IMG/VR virus record: IMGVR_UViG_2703718823_000001
Coordinates: 1 to 13,174 of that record
Direction: 5' to 3' (one strand)
Origin: a virus
Lineage: Duplodnaviria; Heunggongvirae; Uroviricota; Caudoviricetes
Length of the DNA: 13,174 bases
In this document: piece after piece, positions 1 through 6,175 of the stretch
Position numbering within the stretch: position 1 is the stretch's first letter
How the letters are laid out: each line of letters begins with the position of its first letter
The notes under the pieces: generated by a model
What the model saw: the letters and a program-made list of their open reading frames with translations, nothing else
Databases searched by the model: none
Told to the model about the DNA's origin: nothing
Made by a program: the position numbers and the translations under genes

Positions 1-527
1 CAAAAATCAAATACGGCCTGTCGGCTGTCGTTCTGGCGCTGATTGCCGCAGGGGCTTCTGCGCCTGAAATCCTCGACCAGTTTCTGGATGAAAAGGAAGG
101 TAACCACACCACGGCATACCGTGATGGTGCGGGTATCTGGACCATCTGCCGTGGAGCCACCCGGGTGGATGGTAAGCCTGTGATTCCTGGCATGAAGCTG
201 TCGAAGGAAAAATGCGACCGGGTTAACGCTATCGAACGGGATAAGGCGCTGGCATGGGTGGCGAAAAACATCAGAGTGCCACTGACCGAACCTCAGAAAG
301 CGGGTATTGCGTCATTCTGCCCGTATAACATTGGCCCCGGTAAGTGTTTCCCGTCGACGTTTTATAAACGAATTAATGCAGGCGATCGCAGAGGAGCGTG
401 TGAAGCGATTCGCTGGTGGATTAAGGACGGTGGCAGAGACTGCCGTATCCGCTCAAATAATTGCTACGGTCAGGTATCTCGTCGCGACCAGGAGAGTGCG
501 CTGGCGTGCTGGGGTATCGACAGATAA
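1..527 (+). CDS. R: Endolysin, T4-lysozyme-like muramidase with apparent SAR (signal-anchor-release) N-terminal domain; 5' end lies upstream of window
   Basis: Frame 0 is open from nt 3 to the TAA at 525-527. It translates to KIKYGLSAVVLALIAAGASAPEILDQF... (Gly/Ala-rich, weakly hydrophobic, SAR-like) followed by E(96-98)-x8-D(123-125)-x5-T(141-143), the spacing of the T4 lysozyme catalytic triad. It sits directly upstream of Rz/Rz1. Confidence 0.85.
   Translation, partial: KIKYGLSAVVLALIAAGASAPEILDQFLDEKEGNHTTAYRDGAGIWTICRGATRVDGKPVIPGMKLSKEKCDRVNAIERDKALAWVAKNIRVPLTEPQKAGIASFCPYNIGPGKCFPSTFYKRINAGDRRGACEAIRWWIKDGGRDCRIRSNNCYGQVSRRDQESALACWGIDR
412..419 (+). other. Chi octamer 5'-GCTGGTGG-3' (RecBCD hotspot sequence), inside the endolysin gene
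   Basis: Exact octamer match read in the sequence. The orientation is the one that is active for RecBCD entering from the right-hand cos end. Confidence 0.55.
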
Positions 528-1307: not shown

Positions 1308-1532
1308 ATGAAGAAATTACTGGTAACCGTAAAGCCTTTTCAGGGAACAATTCCGTTCCGTATTTTGCAGCGTGGTCGTGTTCTTGTTGAAGGTTCGTTC
1401 AGTGGTAAATGTACGCAATTACACTCCCGGACCTTTCAGGTGAATGCCACGAATGAAGAGCTAACCGTTGAGTGTACGATGAATGCCGCTAAATGCCGCA
1501 TGGTATCCGCTGCATTACAGCCAGTGTGTTGA
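1308..1532 (+). CDS. Hypothetical 74-aa Cys-containing protein in the 'moron' position between spanins and cos
   Basis: ATG at 1308 is preceded by GGAGG (1299-1303). Product MKKLLVTVKPFQGTIPFRILQRGRVLVEGSFSGKCTQLHSRTFQVNATNEELTVECTMNAAKCRMVSAALQPVC has 4 Cys and no obvious signal peptide or TM segment. It occupies the slot where lambda carries bor on the opposite strand. No homolog recognised. Confidence 0.45.
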   Translation: MKKLLVTVKPFQGTIPFRILQRGRVLVEGSFSGKCTQLHSRTFQVNATNEELTVECTMNAAKCRMVSAALQPVC

Positions 1533-1759
1533 GCGACCTTATTATCCATGCGCGGTATTGTCGCCGTATTCCTGCATTAACAGAGACCGCAGCCCGACAG
1601 GGAGACTCCTCTGCGAGAGTGTGCGGGGATAATCAAAAACGATACACACCGGGGTTTACCGCGTTAACGGAGCGCGGCGTTGTCCCCTCATGGTCGCTGG
1701 TCCGGTGCGATGGTGGAAGAAACTGGATTTTGTTGCAACTGACAATCATTATCATTTTG

Positions 1760-1836
1760 CCGGGTCCTTTCCGGCGATCCGGGCCGTTACGGGGCGGCGA
1801 CCTCGCGGGTTTTCGCTATTTATGAAAATTTTCCGG
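1760..1836 (+). other. cos: cosQ/cosN region of a lambda-type cohesive-end site; predicted 12-nt cohesive end GGGCGGCGACCT at 1792-1803
   Basis: 1792-1836 (GGGCGGCGACCTCGCGGGTTTTCGCTATTTATGAAAATTTTCCGG) matches the lambda left end as I recall it. The preceding ...GGGTCCTTTCCGG.GATCCG...GTTACG closely resembles the lambda right end. The small terminase start lies about 195 bp downstream of the predicted end, as in lambda. Confidence 0.8.
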
Positions 1837-1840
1837 GATC

Positions 1841-1948
1841 CATGTCCGGTTTCTCTGCAAGTTAACCATATGAAAAATATAAAAACATGCTTTCCATGAA
1901 CCGGACATGCGCAAAAAATAGACACTAAAACCGGACATGACCGGTTTT
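1841..1948 (+). repeat. cosB-like cluster: four copies of a 12-bp element CATGTCCGGTTT in both orientations, separated by A-tract-rich spacer
   Basis: 1841-1852 CATGTCCGGTTT (forward). 1898-1909 GAACCGGACATG (reverse, 11/12). 1928-1939 AAACCGGACATG (reverse, 12/12). 1937-1948 CATGACCGGTTT (forward, 11/12, overlapping the previous copy to form a near-palindrome). The cluster lies between cosN and the small terminase gene, where lambda has its R3-I1-R2-R1 sites. Confidence 0.6.
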
Positions 1949-1986
1949 GTTGTGATTGTGAGGTGAGAGTTTTTGCGAGGTGAGGA

Positions 1987-2496
1987 GTGGCTACGCAGAC
2001 TGAAGTTGCCAGGCATTTAAGTCTGACCGATCGCCAGCTTCGCAGATTGCAGAAATTGCCGGGTGCCCCGATATCGAATAAGCGAGGGCAACTGGATCTG
2101 GATGCCTGGCGCGATTTTTACATATCGTATCTGAGAAGAAGTAAAAACGATGTGCCTGATGGCGATAGCGAAGACGACTATGAGGAGAAATTGCTTATTG
2201 CCAGATGGGAACTGACAGCAGAACAGGCTGTTACACAGCAGTTAAAAAATGAGGTGTCAAAAGGAAAACTTATTGACACCGGGTTCTGTATTTTTGCCCT
2301 CAGCAAGCTGGCAATGGCGTTATCCAGTACGCTTGATTCCATCCCTTTATCCATGCAGCGACAGTTTCCTGATTTAACACCGCGCCATCTTGACCATCTG
2401 AAAACCCTTATTGCGAAGGGGGCAAATCAGTGTGCGCGGGCGGGGGATAAATTACCGGATTTACTCGATGAATATATCAGAGCAACAACTGAATAA
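1987..2496 (+). CDS. Terminase small subunit (cos-binding DNA packaging protein); Nu1-like C-terminal region, non-lambda N-terminal HTH region
   Basis: GTG start at 1987 with GAGG 6 nt upstream; no in-frame ATG nearby. The C-terminal part (...GFCIFALSKLAMALSSTLDSIPLSMQRQFPDLTPRHLDHLK...LPDLLDEYI) aligns with lambda Nu1 C-terminus as recalled. The N-terminal part (MATQTEVARHLSLTDRQLRRLQKLPGAP...) does not resemble lambda Nu1. Its 3' end overlaps the large terminase start. Confidence 0.85.
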   Translation: MATQTEVARHLSLTDRQLRRLQKLPGAPISNKRGQLDLDAWRDFYISYLRRSKNDVPDGDSEDDYEEKLLIARWELTAEQAVTQQLKNEVSKGKLIDTGFCIFALSKLAMALSSTLDSIPLSMQRQFPDLTPRHLDHLKTLIAKGANQCARAGDKLPDLLDEYIRATTE

Positions 2497-4396
2497 TATG
2501 ATGAGTGCTGTCACAACAGCATTACAGCCCCTGATAAGGGCATTGCCGGTGACGCCAGTTGAATGGGCTGATCAAAATTATTATCTGCCTAAAGAATCTT
2601 CATATGGTGAGGGAGAATGGAAAACGCTGCCGTTCCAGATCGCCATCATGAACAGCATGGGGAATGATCAGATCCGGACTGTTAATCTGATTAAATCTGC
2701 CCGTGTTGGCTATACAAAGATGTTGCTGGGAGTCGCCGGGTATTTTATTGAGCATAAATCCCGAAACAGTCTGCTTTTTCAGCCCACGGATTCTGCCGCT
2801 GAAGATTTTATGAAGTCTCACGTGGAGGCGACGATTCGCGATGTTCCCTGCCTGAAAAAACTTTCTCCCTGGCTGGGACGTAAACATCGTGATAATACCA
2901 TCACGCTGAAACGCTTTTCATCGGGTGTGGGCTTCTGGTGCCTGGGCGGCGCTGCCGCCAAAAACTACCGTGAAAAATCCGTGGACGTGGTCTGCTATGA
3001 CGAACTTTCCTCGTTCGAGCCGGATGTCGAAAAAGAGGGCTCGCCAACCCTGCTGGGGGATAAGCGTATTGAGGGCTCGGTATGGCCAAAATCCATTCGC
3101 GGCTCGACGCCTAAAATAAAAGGCTCCTGCCAGATCGAAAAAGCGGCCAACGAGTCGGCACATTTCATGCGTTTTTATGTGCCCTGCCCGCACTGCGGGG
3201 AGGAGCAGTATCTGAAATTTGGCGATGAGTCCACGCCTTTTGGCCTTAAATGGGAGAAGGACAGTCCCGAAAGTGTTTTCTACCTCTGTGAACATCATGG
3301 CTGCGTGATCCATCAGTCTGAACTGGACCAGAGCAACGGGCGGTGGATCTGTGAAAACACGGGGATGTGGACCCGCGACGGTCTGACGTTTTTCAGCGCC
3401 GCGGATAATGAAATTCCGCCGCCGCGCTCCATCACATTCCATATCTGGACGGCGTACAGTCCGTTCACCACCTGGGTACAGATTGTCTATGACTGGCTGG
3501 ATGCACTGAAAGATCCCAACGGCCTGAAAACCTTTGTGAACACCACGCTGGGCGAGACCTGGGAAGAGGCCGTGGGCGAAAAACTCGATCACCAGGTGCT
3601 GATGGATAAGGTTGTGCGTTACACGGCTGCGGTGCCTTCCCGGGTGGTTTATCTGACGGCGGGCATTGACTCGCAGCGAAACCGTTTTGAGATGTATGTC
3701 TGGGGATGGGCTCCGGGAGAGGAAGCCTTTCTGGTGGATAAAATCATCATTATGGGGCGTCCCGATGAGGAAGAGACGCTGTTACGTGTGGATGTGGCGA
3801 TCAACAAAAAATACCGCCATGCAGACGGAACCGAAATGACCATTTCCCGTGTCTGCTGGGACACCGGGGGGATCGATGGCGAAATTGTCTATCAGAGGTC
3901 AAAAAAACACGGTGTTTTCCGGGTGCTGCCGGTAAAAGGTGCATCTGTTTATGGCAAGCCGGTGATCACCATGCCAAAAACCCGCAATCAGCGGGGCGTG
4001 TATCTGTGCGAAGTGGGGACGGACACCGCAAAAGAAATTCTCTATGCCCGTATGAAAGCCGATCCCACGCCTGCGGATGAAGCCACGTCGTATGCCATCC
4101 GTTTTCCTGATGATCCGGAGATTTTTTCGCAGACAGAGGCGCAGCAACTGGTGGCGGAAGAGCTTGTGGAGAAGTGGGAAAAAGGAAAGATGCGTCTGCT
4201 GTGGGATAACAAAAAGCGGCGTAACGAAGCGCTGGACTGCCTGGTGTATGCCTACGCGGCATTACGTGTGTCCGTGCAACGCTGGCAACTTGATCTGGCT
4301 GTACTGGCAAAATCCCGGGAAGAAGAGACGACCCGGCCAACCCTTAAAGAACTGGCAGCGAAGCTGTCCGGAGGAGTGAATGGTTACAGTCGCTGA
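2468..4396 (+). CDS. A: Terminase large subunit (ATPase/endonuclease), lambda gpA-like
   Basis: Product starts MNISEQQLNN... and is co-linear along its whole length with lambda gpA as recalled (e.g. VEWADQNYYLPKES, KSARVGYTKMLLGV, FWCLGGAAAKNYREKSVDV, CPHCGEEQYLKFGD, YLTAGIDSQ, WDNKKRRNEALDC). The ORF-track start at 2411 is a TTG-initiated upstream extension, judged unlikely. Confidence 0.95.
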   Translation: MNISEQQLNNMMSAVTTALQPLIRALPVTPVEWADQNYYLPKESSYGEGEWKTLPFQIAIMNSMGNDQIRTVNLIKSARVGYTKMLLGVAGYFIEHKSRNSLLFQPTDSAAEDFMKSHVEATIRDVPCLKKLSPWLGRKHRDNTITLKRFSSGVGFWCLGGAAAKNYREKSVDVVCYDELSSFEPDVEKEGSPTLLGDKRIEGSVWPKSIRGSTPKIKGSCQIEKAANESAHFMRFYVPCPHCGEEQYLKFGDESTPFGLKWEKDSPESVFYLCEHHGCVIHQSELDQSNGRWICENTGMWTRDGLTFFSAADNEIPPPRSITFHIWTAYSPFTTWVQIVYDWLDALKDPNGLKTFVNTTLGETWEEAVGEKLDHQVLMDKVVRYTAAVPSRVVYLTAGIDSQRNRFEMYVWGWAPGEEAFLVDKIIIMGRPDEEETLLRVDVAINKKYRHADGTEMTISRVCWDTGGIDGEIVYQRSKKHGVFRVLPVKGASVYGKPVITMPKTRNQRGVYLCEVGTDTAKEILYARMKADPTPADEATSYAIRFPDDPEIFSQTEAQQLVAEELVEKWEKGKMRLLWDNKKRRNEALDCLVYAYAALRVSVQRWQLDLAVLAKSREEETTRPTLKELAAKLSGGVNGYSR

Positions 4397-4586
4397 ACTG
4401 CAGGCGCTGCGTCAGGCGCGCCTTGATTTATTAACCGGTAAACGGGTGGTGTCTGTCCAGAAAGATGGTCGCAGAATTGAATATACGGCGGCCTCTCTGG
4501 ATGAGCTTAACCGGGCGATCAATGATGCTGAGTTGGTACTGGGGACAACCCGCCGTCGCCGTCGTCCGCTGGGAGTGAGGTTATGA
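4380..4586 (+). CDS. W: Head-tail joining / head completion protein, lambda gpW-like (68 aa)
   Basis: Product contains ...LLTGKRVVSVQKDGRRIEYTAASLDEL...RRRRRPLG, same length as and similar to lambda gpW as recalled. GAGGAG lies 3 nt upstream of the ATG. Overlaps the end of A and the start of B (ATGA). Confidence 0.9.
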   Translation: MVTVAELQALRQARLDLLTGKRVVSVQKDGRRIEYTAASLDELNRAINDAELVLGTTRRRRRPLGVRL

Positions 4587-6175
4587 AACGAAAGCCTGTC
4601 CTGATTGATGTGAACGGCGTTCCGCTTCGGGAGAGCCTCAGCTACAACGGGGGCGGTGCAGGATTTGGCGGGCAAATGGCAGAGTGGTTGCCACCCTCGC
4701 AGAGTGCCGATGCGGCCCTGCTGCCCGCGTTGCGTCTGGGGAATGCCCGTGCAGATGATCTGGTGCGCAATAACGGAATAGCGGCCAATGCGGTGGCCCT
4801 GCATAAGGATCACATTGTCGGGCATATGTTTCTGATTAGCTACCGTCCGAACTGGCGCTGGCTGGGGATGCGGGAGACCGCGGCAAAAAGTTTTGTCGAT
4901 GAGGTGGAGGCGGCCTGGTCAGAATACGCAGAAGGGATGTTTGGTGAGATCGACGTGGAAGGGAAACGCACGTTTACGGAATTTATCCGTGAAGGTGTGG
5001 GCGTTCATGCGTTTAACGGCGAAATCTTTGTGCAGCCGGTCTGGGATACGGAGAGCACGCAACTGTTTCGTACGCGTTTTAAAGCCGTGAGTCCGAAACG
5101 GGTGGACACGCCAGGACACGGTATCGGGAACCGTTTTCTGCGGGCCGGGGTGGAGGTTGATCGATATGGCCGTGCCGTTGCGTACCATATCTGTGAGGAT
5201 GATTTTCCTCGCTCCGGGAGTGGACGATGGGAACGGATCCCGCGTGAACTTCCCACCGGGCGTCCGGCCATGCTGCATATTTTCGAGCCGGTGGAGGACG
5301 GGCAGACCCGTGGGGCCAACCAGTTTTACAGCGTCATGGAACGGCTGAAGATGCTCGATTCCCTGCAGGCAACACAGCTTCAGTCGGCCATTGTTAAAGC
5401 CATGTATGCAGCGACGATTGAAAGTGAACTTGATACCGAAAAGGCCTTTGAATATATCGCCGGTGCGCCGCAGGGGCAGAAGGATAATCCGCTTATTAAT
5501 ATTCTGGATAAGTTCTCCACCTGGTATGACACGAATAGCGTGACGCTGGGCGGTGTCAAAATTCCGCACCTTTTCCCTGGTGATGATCTGAAACTTCAGA
5601 CCGCGCAGGATTCAGACAATGGATTTTCGGCGCTTGAACAGGCGCTGCTGCGGTATATCGCTGCCGGTCTTGGCGTTTCCTACGAACAGTTGTCCCGTGA
5701 TTACTCGAAGGTCAGTTACTCAAGTGCCCGCGCCTCCGCCAATGAGTCGTGGCGCTATTTTATGGGGCGGCGAAAATTTATTGCGGCCCGGCTGGCCACG
5801 CAGATGTTTTCCTGCTGGCTGGAAGAGGCACTTCTTCGGGGGATTATTCGTCCGCCACGGGCACGTTTTGATTTTTATCAGGCGCGTTCAGCCTGGTCAC
5901 GGGCTGAGTGGATTGGTGCCGGAAGAATGGCCATTGACGGGCTCAAGGAGGTTCAGGAATCGGTGATGCGTATTGATTCCGGACTGAGCACGTATGAGAA
6001 AGAGCTGGCGCTGATGGGCGAGGATTATCAGGACATTTTCCGCCAGCAGGTCAGGGAATCTGCAGAGCGGGAAAAAGCCGGACTCTCACGTCCGGTGTGG
6101 ATAGCGCAGGCGTATCAGCAGCAGATAGCGGAGAGTCGCAGGCCGGAAGAGGAGACAACACCACGTGAGACGTAA
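4583..6175 (+). CDS. B: Portal protein, lambda gpB-like
   Basis: 530-aa product in the position and of the size of lambda gpB (about 533 aa), between W and C, with start overlapping the W stop. Confidence 0.93.
   Translation: MKRKPVLIDVNGVPLRESLSYNGGGAGFGGQMAEWLPPSQSADAALLPALRLGNARADDLVRNNGIAANAVALHKDHIVGHMFLISYRPNWRWLGMRETAAKSFVDEVEAAWSEYAEGMFGEIDVEGKRTFTEFIREGVGVHAFNGEIFVQPVWDTESTQLFRTRFKAVSPKRVDTPGHGIGNRFLRAGVEVDRYGRAVAYHICEDDFPRSGSGRWERIPRELPTGRPAMLHIFEPVEDGQTRGANQFYSVMERLKMLDSLQATQLQSAIVKAMYAATIESELDTEKAFEYIAGAPQGQKDNPLINILDKFSTWYDTNSVTLGGVKIPHLFPGDDLKLQTAQDSDNGFSALEQALLRYIAAGLGVSYEQLSRDYSKVSYSSARASANESWRYFMGRRKFIAARLATQMFSCWLEEALLRGIIRPPRARFDFYQARSAWSRAEWIGAGRMAIDGLKEVQESVMRIDSGLSTYEKELALMGEDYQDIFRQQVRESAEREKAGLSRPVWIAQAYQQQIAESRRPEEETTPRET

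What the first reader, a model, noticed from the sequence alone, without database searches (positions are those of the whole stretch)
1760..1950. Lambda-type cosN/cosQ joined to a non-lambda cosB built from a CATGTCCGGTTT repeat family
The segment 1792-1836 appears identical to the lambda left end, including the 12-nt cohesive end GGGCGGCGACCT. From 1837 onward the sequence diverges from lambda and instead carries four copies of a 12-bp element in alternating orientation, separated by A-tract-rich DNA. Lambda has its gpNu1-binding R sites and an IHF site in this position. Phage 21 is known to share cosN with lambda while differing in cosB and small-terminase specificity, so this is most likely a 21-like or other alternative packaging specificity. 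The repeats are the candidate binding sites for the small terminase at 1987-2496. I could not find a canonical IHF consensus by eye in the spacer. The cos position also means that 1-1803 is the right end and 1792 onward the left end of the virion chromosome.
Basis: partly seen in the sequence, partly recalled or inferred. Interest (0 to 1): 0.55.

Follow-up and report, generated by a model that had tools for sequence, protein, structure and literature searches.

The report
Uncharacterised lambda-type cosB packaging site
This is the DNA-packaging start site of a lambda-like prophage: the cutting site is identical to lambda's, but the adjacent docking sites and the matching small-terminase DNA-binding domain belong to a common class that I could not find described, so it probably sets a fourth packaging specificity beside lambda, 21 and N15.

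Summary
Window 1792-1836 is 45/45 identical to lambda bp 1-45, cosQ (GGGTCCT) lies 30 bp upstream, and homology to lambda stops at 1837. Four copies of CATG(T/A)CCGGTT lie at 1841-1947. None occurs elsewhere in 13 kb (0.27 expected). Their orientation is + - - +, not strictly alternating.

The layout matches the lambda/21/Gifsy-1 complex cosB: R3 at bp 50-61, a lambda-I1-like IHF site at bp 72-84, inverted R2 at bp 108-118, and accessory copies at bp 137-156.

It is not 21-like. R3 matches 21 at 4/16 positions when locked to the nick. The small-terminase (TerS) DNA-binding domain is 12/55 identical to 21 gp1, and BLASTP aligns only from residue 64. TerL, however, is 93% identical to phage 21's. 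So a cosB-terS cassette (about 1837-2549) sits in a 21-like head module.

In 11 relatives from at least five enterobacterial genera, TCCGGTT (bp 54-60) and AACCGGA (bp 108-114) are invariant with fixed spacing, while the spacers diverge. Several relatives carry an exact IHF consensus between them. TerS residue 20 tracks bp 53.

This type is in 1156 of 5426 complete E. coli genomes, about as many as the 21 type. Binding and virion ends are inferred, not shown. I rate it a new variant of a known kind, of moderate interest.

The parts
1762..1768 (+). cosQ heptamer GGGTCCT, 30 bp upstream of the top-strand nick. In lambda it is needed to terminate packaging.
   Evidence: Same sequence and same distance as lambda 48473-48479. 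GGGTCCTTTC is invariant in 9 aligned relatives. The role is from PMC4669245.
1790..1805 (.). cosN. The 12-nt cohesive end GGGCGGCGACCT is 1792-1803, plus 2 bp on each side. Predicted nicks lie between 1791/1792 (top strand) and 1803/1804 (bottom strand).
   Evidence: Identical to lambda and 21 bp 1-12. Nicking itself is inferred by homology and not shown.
1792..1836 (+). Segment identical to lambda bp 1-45. It includes the equivalent of the IHF I2 site annotated in phage 21 (TATGAAAATTTTCCG, 1821-1835). Homology to lambda and 21 breaks at 1836-1838.
   Evidence: 45/45 identity. Stx1a phages and PhiR5_1 share 1549/1600-1838 and then diverge. The I2 position is taken from the phage 21 annotation.
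1841..1852 (+). R3-equivalent CATGTCCGGTTT (bp 50-61). The invariant core TCCGGTT is 1845-1851 (bp 54-60).
   Evidence: The position matches lambda R3 (bp 50-65, contacts bp 55-63; PMC9026076) and N15 R3 (bp 48-59). The core is invariant in 11 relatives at bp 55 +/-1.
1863..1885 (+). I1-equivalent. An IHF-like site TAACCATATGAAA (1863-1875, bp 72-84) is followed by the A-tracts AAAAATATAAAAAC.
   Evidence: It has 2 mismatches to YAANNNNTTGATW, as does lambda TAACTTAATGTTT at bp 74-86. The aligned position is an exact consensus in L014, L016, L020 and L028. The spacer is 70% AT. IHF binding was not tested.
1898..1909 (-). R2-equivalent, inverted: GAACCGGACATG (bp 107-118). The invariant core AACCGGA is 1899-1905.
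   Evidence: It lies 53 bp start-to-start from R3 in all 11 relatives, with no indels between them. lambda R2 is at bp 109-120 and 21 R2 at 107-122.
1928..1939 (-). Third copy AAACCGGACATG (bp 137-148), in the same orientation as R2. Accessory site.
   Evidence: It is kept in E. coli variants L032 and L033 and in Enterobacter L024 at the same position. L036 also has a third inverted copy, and in Klebsiella it lies at bp 151. It is absent in several Salmonella and Citrobacter relatives.
1936..1947 (+). Fourth copy CATGACCGGTTT (bp 145-156), oriented like R3, so it is R1-like in orientation and approximate position. It overlaps the third copy to form a near-palindrome.
   Evidence: lambda R1 is at bp 155-166 and 21 R1 at 150-166. 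The copy is lost in E. coli variant L033 and degenerate in L024, so it is dispensable or variable.
1987..2496 (+). terS: small terminase, 169 aa, GTG start. Residues 1-54 are a divergent winged-HTH DNA-binding domain (recognition helix about residues 15-22). Residues 49-150 match the Nu1 family.
2468..4396 (+). terL: large terminase, 642 aa. From residue 17 it is 93% identical to phage 21 gp2. DNA homology to 21 resumes at 2550.
   Evidence: Pfam GpA_ATPase and GpA_nuclease, tblastn, blastn breakpoints.
1837..2549 (+). Exchangeable cassette: cosB, terS and the first ~27 codons of terL. It has no nucleotide homology to phage 21. Against PhiR5_1 the non-homologous part is only 1839-2271, which is cosB plus roughly the first 95 codons of terS (DNA-binding domain, linker and start of the Nu1-homology region).
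   Evidence: blastn of window 1501-5000 against the phage 21 genome and against PhiR5_1.

Best explanation
Window 1762-1986 is the cos site of a lambda-like prophage.

cosQ and cosN are of the lambda/21 type. TerL should therefore make 12-nt 5' cohesive ends, GGGCGGCGACCT, at 1792-1803.

cosB has the complex architecture R3 - IHF site - inverted R2 - accessory copies. Its R sequence is different: (C/G)A(T/C)(T/G)TCCGGTT, here CATGTCCGGTT.

The cognate reader is the N-terminal winged-HTH domain of the small terminase (TerS) encoded at 1987-2496. This domain is a divergent homologue of the lambda gpNu1 DNA-binding domain, with a different recognition helix (TDRQLRRLQK).

Proposed mechanism, by analogy with lambda: a TerS dimer docks on R3 (1841-1852) and R2 (1898-1909) across a bend at about 1863-1885. 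IHF and/or the A-tracts make that bend. The dimer positions TerL on cosN, about 50 bp away. The copies at 1928-1947 add affinity, as lambda R1 does.

Because cosN is shared with lambda and 21 but the R sites and recognition helix are not, the cassette should give a packaging specificity separate from lambda, 21 and N15.

What is shown: the sequence anatomy, the conservation pattern, the association of domain with site, and the homology. What is inferred: binding, bending, nicking and exclusivity.
For: 1. Anatomy. cosQ and cosN have lambda's sequence and spacing. The R copies lie at bp 50-61, 107-118, 137-148 and 145-156. Compare lambda 53-64, 109-120, 155-166 and phage 21 50-65, 107-122, 150-166. 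An IHF-like site lies at bp 72-84, against 74-86 in lambda and 21.

2. Not chance. There are 4 matches against 0.27 expected, all inside cosB.

3. Conservation footprint. In 11 cos sites whose TerS is 60-99% identical (E. coli, Klebsiella, Salmonella x3, Citrobacter, Enterobacter, one metagenome), the 14 core positions are all invariant, against 6 of 66 positions outside the core. There are no indels between R3 and R2. Among three E. coli variants, 1 of 35 repeat positions varies against 17 of 69 elsewhere.

4. IHF. An exact IHF consensus sits at the aligned position in four relatives.

5. Domain and site go together. Every TerS with the MATQxEVAxHL domain that I examined has CCGGTT, or in two cases the related TTCCGCTTCC, at the R3 position. 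This includes Pseudomonas LPPA33, Aeromonas phiARM81ld, E. coli 705R4 and proteobacterial MAGs. Phage 21 and Gifsy-1 have no CCGGTT in cosB. lambda has one only at bp 42-47, outside its R sites.

6. Natural swap. PhiR5_1 shares both flanks at 92-95% identity but differs in exactly 1839-2271, carrying a 21/lambda-like domain with different R sites.

7. Fine-scale co-variation. Residue 20, in the predicted recognition helix, is R where bp 53 is G (5 of 5 lineages) and D or N where it is T (9 of 9), in both R3 and R2.

8. Homology and fold. hhalign gives 99.8% and aligns the N-terminus in register. The model superposes on the RppC and lambda TerS domains at 2.2-2.6 A.

9. Function in a live phage. 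PhiR12_1 to _5 carry the same cos (98.6% identity) and are deposited as phages with K-12 or E. coli C named as host.

10. Published background. R3 position, bp 54-60 and TerS residues 20 and 24 decide specificity in lambda, 21 and N15 (PMC4669245, PMC9026076).
Against: - No binding, footprinting, packaging or virion-end data exist for this cos.
- cosB lies directly next to the domain-coding part of terS. Co-inheritance and the residue-20/bp-53 pattern could therefore reflect linkage and shared ancestry rather than recognition.
- The core positions used for the conservation test were chosen after looking at the same alignment.
- The window's IHF-like site has 2 mismatches.
- The third copy is oriented like R2, unlike R1 of lambda and 21.
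- The Foldseek matches are not significant (E about 0.6-2), and the PDB profile search did not find gpNu1.
- Cross-packaging by lambda or 21 terminase is not excluded. N15 terminase packages lambda DNA despite dissimilar R3 sites (PMC4669245).
Confidence: 0.8

Rival explanations
1. The cosB has phage 21 specificity. The CATGTC-containing repeats would be diverged 21 R sites read by a gp1-like terminase.
For: The 21 R sites share CATGTC with the window: R1 TTTCATGTCGGGCCTT and R2 (reverse complement) CATGTCGG. The R3/I1/R2 layout is nearly the same. TerL is 93% identical to 21 gp2.
Against: Locked to the nick, R3 matches 21 at 4/16 positions, and bp 56 and 59 are C and T against G and G. Matching the CATGTC blocks needs a 3-bp shift plus a 1-bp indel, and the cosN-R3 distance is critical (PMC4669245). 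In the window's family CATG is the variable part (CATT, CACT, GATG) while TCCGGTT is invariant. The TerS domain is 12/55 identical to gp1 and BLASTP does not align it. blastn finds no 21 homology in 1833-2549. Recognition-helix positions equivalent to 20 and 24 are R and K, against E and S in 21.
Confidence: 0.03
2. The repeats bind a protein other than the phage's own TerS, for example a host regulator or a satellite-encoded Rpp-like protein, and TerS recognises something else.
For: No binding data exist. PICI cos sites show that a cosB can be read by a non-TerS winged-HTH protein (PMC6739421).
Against: The site position, the inverted pair with fixed 53-bp spacing around an IHF site, and strict co-occurrence with one TerS domain type from E. 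coli to Pseudomonas and Aeromonas all fit the TerS model. No other conserved block exists between bp 46 and terS. The window encodes a full TerS rather than an Rpp.
Confidence: 0.06
3. The overlapping third and fourth copies (1926-1949) act mainly as an RNA hairpin or intrinsic terminator upstream of terS, not as protein sites.
For: The terminator-like scan flags 1926-1949 on both strands: a 9-bp stem followed by a T-rich tail. The RNA fold is -13.7 kcal/mol, z = -2.5.
Against: The palindrome is missing in E. coli variant L033 and in most other genera, while the single inverted copy is kept. The T tail is interrupted. Late transcription in lambda-like phages is Q-antiterminated and must read through cos into the head genes (established lambda biology). 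Rfam gives no hit.
Confidence: 0.05
4. The repeats are a chance or decayed feature of a defective prophage and have no present function.
For: Many copies of this module sit in cryptic prophages. In O157:H7 FRIK2533 terS is cut by IS66.
Against: The repeats are far more frequent than chance and conserved across genera. Propagated phages PhiR12_1 to _5 carry them.
Confidence: 0.02

Closest known systems
Phage lambda cos (cosQ-cosN-cosB with R3-I1-R2-R1) and gpNu1
   Same: cosQ, cosN and bp 1-45 are identical. The order and positions of R3, the IHF site, inverted R2 and a distal copy are the same. TerS is a Nu1-family protein with an N-terminal winged-HTH domain (hhalign 99.8%, aligned in register). 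The gene order is cos-terS-terL.
   Different: The R sequence is CATGTCCGGTT, not CGTTTCC(G/T)TTCT: 2/16 identity when locked to the nick. The DNA-binding domain is 7/55 identical, with a wing 5 residues shorter and recognition helix TDRQLRRLQK against SIRTIQNWQE. There is an extra inverted copy, and copies 3 and 4 overlap.
Phage 21 cos and gp1 (21 packaging specificity)
   Same: It shares cosQ and cosN with lambda while differing in cosB, which is exactly the situation here. The window R3 and R2 are the same 57 bp apart as the 21 sites annotated at bp 50-65 and 107-122, and the IHF site is at bp 74-86 in 21 against 72-84 here. The window's TerL is 93% identical to 21 gp2, and the downstream head genes are 21-like.
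   Different: The R core is C(A/G)TGTCGG, against TCCGGTT here. bp 56 and 59 are G and G, against C and T. The gp1 domain is not alignable by BLASTP. There is no nucleotide homology across 1833-2549.
N15 and Monarch (third documented specificity; simple versus complex cosB)
   Same: Like the N15/Monarch pair, the window's TerS family contains both complex cosBs (enterobacterial members, including the window) and simple ones. The simple ones (phiARM81ld, LPPA33, 705R4) have a single R3 block plus an inverted copy inside terS about 194-203 bp downstream, as N15 has rR2.
   Different: N15 R3 is GAGGTTGTTGTT, and its TerS domain is 12/55 identical to the window's.
Gifsy-1 cos
   Same: A complex R3-I1-R2-R1 cosB at the same positions, with its own R sequence CAGATCC(G/T)TTC.
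   Different: Its R sequence is a lambda-like variant and its TerS domain is lambda/21-like (MNVNKKKLAEIF...). The window's is neither.
PICI cos sites read by Rpp-TerS heterodimers
   Different: R2 and an IHF site are present.

Membership tests
lambda-like cos site (12-nt 5' cohesive ends related to lambda; cosQ-cosN-cosB) | cosN with a 12-nt cohesive-end sequence related to lambda's | tested here: met
   1792-1803 GGGCGGCGACCT is identical to lambda and 21, and bp 1-45 are 45/45 identical. This is sequence evidence only.
lambda-like cos site (12-nt 5' cohesive ends related to lambda; cosQ-cosN-cosB) | cosQ heptamer about 30 bp upstream of the nick | tested here: met
   GGGTCCT at 1762-1768, 30 bp before 1792. 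It is invariant in relatives.
lambda-like cos site (12-nt 5' cohesive ends related to lambda; cosQ-cosN-cosB) | Virion DNA actually ends in 12-nt 5' overhangs at this site | not testable with these tools
   This needs virion-end sequencing or PhageTerm analysis. The PhiR12 records are not deposited in cos-permuted form.
Complex cosB (R3-I1-R2-R1) | R3 about 50-65 bp from the left end | tested here: met
   CATGTCCGGTTT at bp 50-61, fixed at +/-1 bp in 11 relatives.
Complex cosB (R3-I1-R2-R1) | R2 inverted relative to R3, roughly 55 bp away | tested here: met
   bp 107-118 on the minus strand. The 53-bp offset has no indels in 11 relatives.
Complex cosB (R3-I1-R2-R1) | IHF site between R3 and R2 | tested here: inconclusive
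   The window has no exact consensus. TAACCATATGAAA at bp 72-84 has 2 mismatches, as does the lambda sequence at bp 74-86. Four relatives have an exact consensus at the aligned position. Binding was not tested.
Complex cosB (R3-I1-R2-R1) | R1 distal to R2 and oriented like R3 | tested here: inconclusive
   Copy 4 (bp 145-156, plus strand, 11/12) fits, but it is lost in variant L033. The better-conserved distal copy (bp 137-148) is oriented like R2.
Nu1-family small terminase | Nu1 homology and an N-terminal winged-HTH DNA-binding domain, encoded just before a gpA-type terL | tested here: met
Phage 21 packaging specificity | R sites with the core C(A/G)TGTCGG, with G at bp 56 and G at bp 59 | tested here: not met
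   4/16 identity locked to the nick. bp 56 is C and bp 59 is T.
Phage 21 packaging specificity | gp1-type DNA-binding domain and recognition helix | tested here: not met
   12/55 identity. BLASTP aligns only residues 64-166.
lambda packaging specificity | R sites CGTTTCC(G/T)TTCT and a gpNu1 recognition helix with Q20 and E24 | tested here: not met
   2/16 identity locked to the nick. The domain is 7/55 identical. The aligned residues are R19 and K23.
N15 packaging specificity | R3 GAGGTTGTTGTT at bp 48-59 and an N15-type TerS helix | tested here: not met
   6/16 identity locked to the nick. The domain is 12/55 identical.
Any distinct packaging specificity (functional definition) | Self DNA is packaged far better than DNA carrying a heterologous cosB | not testable with these tools
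   This needs helper-packaging or cos-plasmid transduction assays.

The most novel reading that the evidence does not exclude
The CCGGTT-type cosB and its MATQ-type TerS domain form a fourth, functionally exclusive packaging specificity among lambda-like cos phages. It is as common in E. coli as the 21 type and is present in O157:H7 prophages. It may also carry a readable recognition rule: recognition-helix residue 20 is R with G at bp 53, and D or N with T. The family contains both complex (R3-IHF-R2) and simple (R3 plus remote inverted copy) architectures. Together these would make it a natural system for working out how TerS specificity and cosB architecture evolve, and for predicting which co-resident prophages and satellites can cross-package in polylysogenic pathogens.
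Probability: 0.55. Interest if true: 0.5.

Novelty: new variant of a known kind. Interest (0 to 1): 0.4.

Why it matters
The Feiss laboratory wrote in 2015 that only three packaging specificities (lambda, 21, N15) had been documented among lambda-like cos phages, and that this diversity looked modest (PMC4669245). I found no later report of a further one.

This cassette looks like another specificity, and it is not rare. It is in 1156 of 5426 complete E. coli genomes, including O157:H7 strains. The 21 type is in 1173 and the lambda type in 3954.

Polylysogenic STEC strains carry several lambda-like prophages that share cosN. Which cosB each carries should decide which prophages, defective prophages and satellites a given terminase can package, and so which virulence genes are mobilised.

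The natural chimeras give ready-made material for studying TerS-DNA recognition and TerS-TerL pairing. PhiR5_1 and phage 21 are each homologous to the window on both sides of the cassette but carry a different cosB and TerS domain.

The biology is an extension of a well-understood mechanism, not a new one.

Tried and rejected
- Genome-contig scan with the TerS alignment. It returned only 6 distant loci (MAGs, Azospirillum) and no enterobacterial ones. I used exact-protein look-ups instead.
- PDB sequence-profile search. It found no gpNu1 or Rpp hit, so sequence alone does not link the domain to solved TerS structures. hhalign and fold comparison were needed.
- Exact IHF consensus: none in the window.
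- Promoter scan: no sigma-70-like site in 1300-2300, so the repeats are not obviously operators of a local promoter.
- Rfam at E <= 1: nothing.
- Literature. No paper mentions PhiR12, and none describes a CCGGTT-type cosB. Two key Virology papers (PMC4461450, PMC5006951) are not held, so a prior bioinformatic mention there cannot be excluded.
- Rejected, 21-type cosB: see the rival explanations.
- Rejected, shifting the window R3 by 3 bp to align CATGTC with 21. The family conserves TCCGGTT rather than CATG, and the cosN-R3 distance is critical in lambda.
- ORF 1493-1825 crosses cos. I treat it as spurious: it has one weak PHROG hit and is not annotated by PGAP.
Full report

Yes. A local alignment of window 1500-2100 against the joined lambda chromosome ends covers 1740-1836. 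Within it, 1792-1836 is 45/45 identical to lambda bp 1-45, including the cohesive end GGGCGGCGACCT at 1792-1803. The cosQ heptamer GGGTCCT lies at 1762-1768, 30 bp before the nick as in lambda. Lambda continues TTTAAGGCGTTTCC, whereas the window continues GATCCATGTCCGG.

The repeat finder and a pattern search give four copies:
- 1841-1852 CATGTCCGGTTT (+)
- 1898-1909 GAACCGGACATG (-)
- 1928-1939 AAACCGGACATG (-)
- 1936-1947 CATGACCGGTTT (+)

With at most one mismatch the 11-mer occurs four times in 13,174 bp, all in this 106-bp stretch. Shuffles give 0.27 expected, and 0 of 200 reach 4.

Two corrections are needed. The orientation is + - - +, not alternating, and copies 3 and 4 overlap by CATG. 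The spacers are 67-70% AT with A-tracts, against 46% AT for the whole window.

**2. Context**

Upstream are lysis genes (endolysin, Rz). Downstream are terS (1987-2496, GTG start), terL (2468-4396), then the W, portal, protease, D, E, FI and FII genes and the tail genes.

The window matches a prophage of E. coli 2015C-3121 and others. It also matches five deposited phages, PhiR12_1 to _5, at 98.6% over 1600-2100. K-12 or E. coli C is named as their host.

**3. The layout is that of a complex lambda-type cosB**

Positions are counted from the left end, with bp 1 at window 1792.

| Element | Window | lambda | Phage 21 |
|---|---|---|---|
| R3 | 50-61 | 53-64 (core) | 50-65 |
| IHF site | 72-84 | 74-86 | 74-86 |
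| R2 (inverted) | 107-118 | 109-120 | 107-122 |
| Distal copies / R1 | 137-148 (-), 145-156 (+) | 155-166 | 150-166 |

Gifsy-1 has the same positions as lambda.

Murialdo and Feiss place lambda R3 at bp 50-65 with TerS contacts at bp 55-63, and N15 R3 at bp 48-60 (PMC9026076). In N15, bp 54-59 matter most, and in lambda and 21, bp 56 and 59 are critical (PMC4669245). The window's invariant core TCCGGTT occupies bp 54-60.

**4. IHF**

The window has no exact WATCAANNNNTTR. TAACCATATGAAA at 1863-1875 has two mismatches to the reverse-complement consensus YAANNNNTTGATW. The lambda sequence TAACTTAATGTTT at bp 74-86, the position annotated as I1 in phage 21, also has two. A-tracts follow the window's site. 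In relatives the aligned position is an exact consensus: TAACCAATTGATT, TAACATATTGATT and TAACCTGTTGATT.

**5. Comparison across relatives**

Exact-protein look-ups recovered cos regions for TerS homologues 60-81% identical to the window's. These came from Klebsiella, a second E. coli lineage, three Salmonella lineages, Citrobacter, Enterobacter kobei and metagenomes. Two further E. coli variants were added.

Results for the 11 sequences in the position comparison:
- CCGGTT starts at bp 55 +/-1 and AACCGG at bp 108 +/-1 in every one. There is no indel between them.
- The 14 core positions are invariant, against 6 of 66 other positions between bp 46 and 125. The core was defined after seeing the alignment, so the Fisher p of 3e-11 is descriptive only.
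- Among three E. coli variants, 1 of 35 repeat positions varies against 17 of 69 elsewhere.
- After R2 nothing is conserved across genera. The third, inverted copy recurs in E. coli and Enterobacter at the same place, in the metagenomic L036, and in Klebsiella further out. The fourth copy is missing in one E. coli variant.

So R3, the bend site and R2 form the constrained unit, and copies 3 and 4 are accessory.

**6. The reader protein**

Pfam recognises only residues 49-150 of TerS as Nu1. tblastn and BLASTP align lambda, 21, N15, phi80 and Gifsy-1 TerS only from about residue 60.

| Compared with | N-terminal 55 residues | C-terminal part |
|---|---|---|
| lambda | 7/55 | 43/99 |
| 21 | 12/55 | 39/99 |
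| N15 | 12/55 | 41/98 |
| Gifsy-1 | 8/55 | 28/94 |

The domain is nevertheless homologous to gpNu1's. Profile-profile comparison with lambda, 21 and Gifsy-1 TerS gives 99.8% probability and aligns the N-terminus in register. Window R16 aligns with lambda R17, R19 with Q20 and K23 with E24, and the wing is 5 residues shorter.

Searched alone against 1.84 billion representatives, the domain finds 42 clusters. Apart from fragments and three long or repetitive outliers, they carry it at the N-terminus of proteins of roughly 150-210 residues.

**7. Domain and site travel together**

Distant relatives with the same MATQxEVAxHL domain carry TTTCCGGTTCCGGT(T) at the R3 position. These are Pseudomonas LPPA33, Aeromonas phiARM81ld, E. 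coli vB_EcoM-705R4 and several proteobacterial MAGs. Two MAG loci have the related TTCCGCTTCC instead.

A natural swap supports the link. PhiR5_1 is 95% identical to the window up to 1838 and 92% identical from 2272 onward. In between it has a 21/lambda-like domain (MNVNKKKLAEIF...) with CATGTC(A/G)-type R sites.

Within the family, recognition-helix residue 20 is R wherever bp 53 is G (ATGTCCGGTT; 5 of 5 lineages). It is D or N wherever bp 53 is T (AT/CTTCCGGTT; 9 of 9). R2 changes in step.

Because cosB adjoins the domain-coding DNA, linkage and shared ancestry can produce this pattern. It is consistent with direct reading but does not prove it.

**8. Not 21-like, but set in a 21-like head module**

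Locked to the nick, the window's R3 matches 21 at 4/16 positions, lambda at 2/16, Gifsy-1 at 2/16 and N15 at 6/16. bp 56 and 59 are C and T, against G and G in 21 and T and C in lambda.

The shared CATGTC between the window and 21 R sites needs a 3-bp shift and an indel. It also falls in the part that varies within the window's own family.

TerL is 93% identical to 21 gp2 from residue 17, against 66% to lambda-type gpA. Nucleotide homology to the 21 genome is absent from 1833 to 2549 and 93% thereafter. The element is therefore a cosB-terS-terL(N-terminus) cassette placed between lambda/21-type cosN and 21-type head genes. Its left edge is at bp 45-47 in every comparison.

**9. Mechanism proposed**

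Shown: the anatomy, conservation, homology and modularity described above.

Inferred by analogy with lambda (PMC4669245, PMC9026076):
- A TerS dimer docks its two winged-HTH domains on R3 and R2.
- IHF and/or the A-tracts at about 1863-1885 bend the DNA and bring R3 and R2 together.
- This anchors TerL to nick cosN at 1791/1792 and 1803/1804.
- Copies 3 and 4 add affinity.
- Packaging then proceeds rightward from 1792, and cosQ acts at termination.

I put 0.8 on the repeats being the TerS sites of a functional cosB. I put about 0.55 on the stronger claim that this is a fully exclusive fourth specificity, because N15 terminase packages lambda DNA despite dissimilar R3 sites.

**10. Rivals**

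- 21 specificity: 0.03.
- Sites for another protein: 0.06.
- Copies 3 and 4 acting as a terminator hairpin: 0.05. The scan flags it and the RNA fold is -13.7 kcal/mol, z = -2.5, but it is not conserved.
- Relic or chance: 0.02.

**11. Known or new?**

The kind is textbook. The particular R sequence and domain class are not described in any paper I could search. The 2015 statement that only lambda, 21 and N15 specificities are documented is the latest I found. Two relevant Virology papers were not readable.

The class is common:

| cos type | Complete E. coli genomes (of 5426) |
|---|---|
| lambda type | 3954 |
| 21 type | 1173 |
| This type | 1156 |

Yet only five of 50,697 deposited phage records carry this TerS.

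Verdict: a new variant of a known kind, with interest about 0.4.

Noticed in passing
L005 (LPPA33) terS nt 173; L006 (phiARM81ld) nt 173; L007 (705R4) nt 182: The three 'simple cosB' relatives have one TTTCCGGTTCCGGT block before terS. They also have an inverted AACCGGAA(A/G)xG inside terS, about 194-203 bp downstream. This is the same layout as N15's R3 plus remote rR2 (bp 48-59 and 249-260). The internal copy encodes a conserved Pro-Glu in an otherwise variable acidic linker, which suggests a constraint at the DNA level.
   Followed up: partly
window 1833-2549 and 1839-2271: Mosaic joints. Phage 21 homology stops at 1832 and resumes at 2550, inside terL codon ~28. PhiR5_1 homology stops at 1838 and resumes at 2272, terS codon ~95. 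TerL residues 1-16 differ from 21 but match PhiR5_1. These are natural chimeras that map the TerS-domain/cosB module and the TerS-TerL pairing region.
   Followed up: partly
lambda bp 41-47 (L001), window 1832-1838: lambda itself has TCCGGTT at bp 41-47 (ATTTTCCGGTTTA), 13 bp upstream of where the window family places its core. The lambda/window homology break at bp 45/46 falls inside it. This could be coincidence or a recombination joint.
   Followed up: no
L038 (PhiR5_1) bp 46-200 after its cosN: PhiR5_1 carries yet another R variant with a 21-like TerS domain: GCATGTCAGTTCTTCTT, inverted AAGAAAGAAACGACATC, and TTTCATGTCGTAAC. It mixes features of 21 and lambda R sites and may be a further sub-specificity.
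   Followed up: no
L032 (E. coli O157:H7 FRIK2533) 1702-3415: The O157:H7 copy keeps all four repeats intact, but an IS66-family element (ISEc8) interrupts its terS. The prophage is packaging-defective yet retains a cos that a co-resident phage of the same specificity could use.
   Followed up: no
window 1956-1967 and 1973-1984: Direct repeat TTGTGAGGTGAG / TTGCGAGGTGAG just before the GTG start of terS. It is a duplicated Shine-Dalgarno-like stretch.
   Followed up: no
window 1926-1949: Copies 3 and 4 form a 9-bp-stem hairpin followed by a T-rich run. The scan flags it as terminator-like on both strands. The RNA fold is -13.7 kcal/mol, z = -2.5. It is absent in variant L033.
   Followed up: partly
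window 1493-1825: A 110-aa ORF runs across cosQ and cosN. It has one weak PHROG hit (phrog_6954, residues 20-64) and is not annotated by PGAP in the near-identical prophage. It is probably not a gene.
   Followed up: partly
L016 (E. coli) and L007 (705R4): These have the CCGGTT-type cosB but a different 12 bp at the predicted cohesive-end position (30 bp after cosQ): GACGGCAGACGC and GTCGGTAGACGC. So the cosN sequence and the cosB type assort independently.
   Followed up: no
P0105 (2465 aa), P0121, P0129: The 55-residue domain query also hit very long proteins with many repeated matching stretches (19 in P0105). The PDB profile search gave a weak hit to the MACF1 region NFDFDVWRKKYMRW. This is probably a chance similarity in repeat proteins.
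   Followed up: no
E. coli complete genomes: 4421-4450 of 5426 genomes carry the cosN-proximal ~50 bp, with up to 8 places per genome. The K-12 cryptic prophage genes nohA and nohD lie next to lambda-type cosB.
   Followed up: partly
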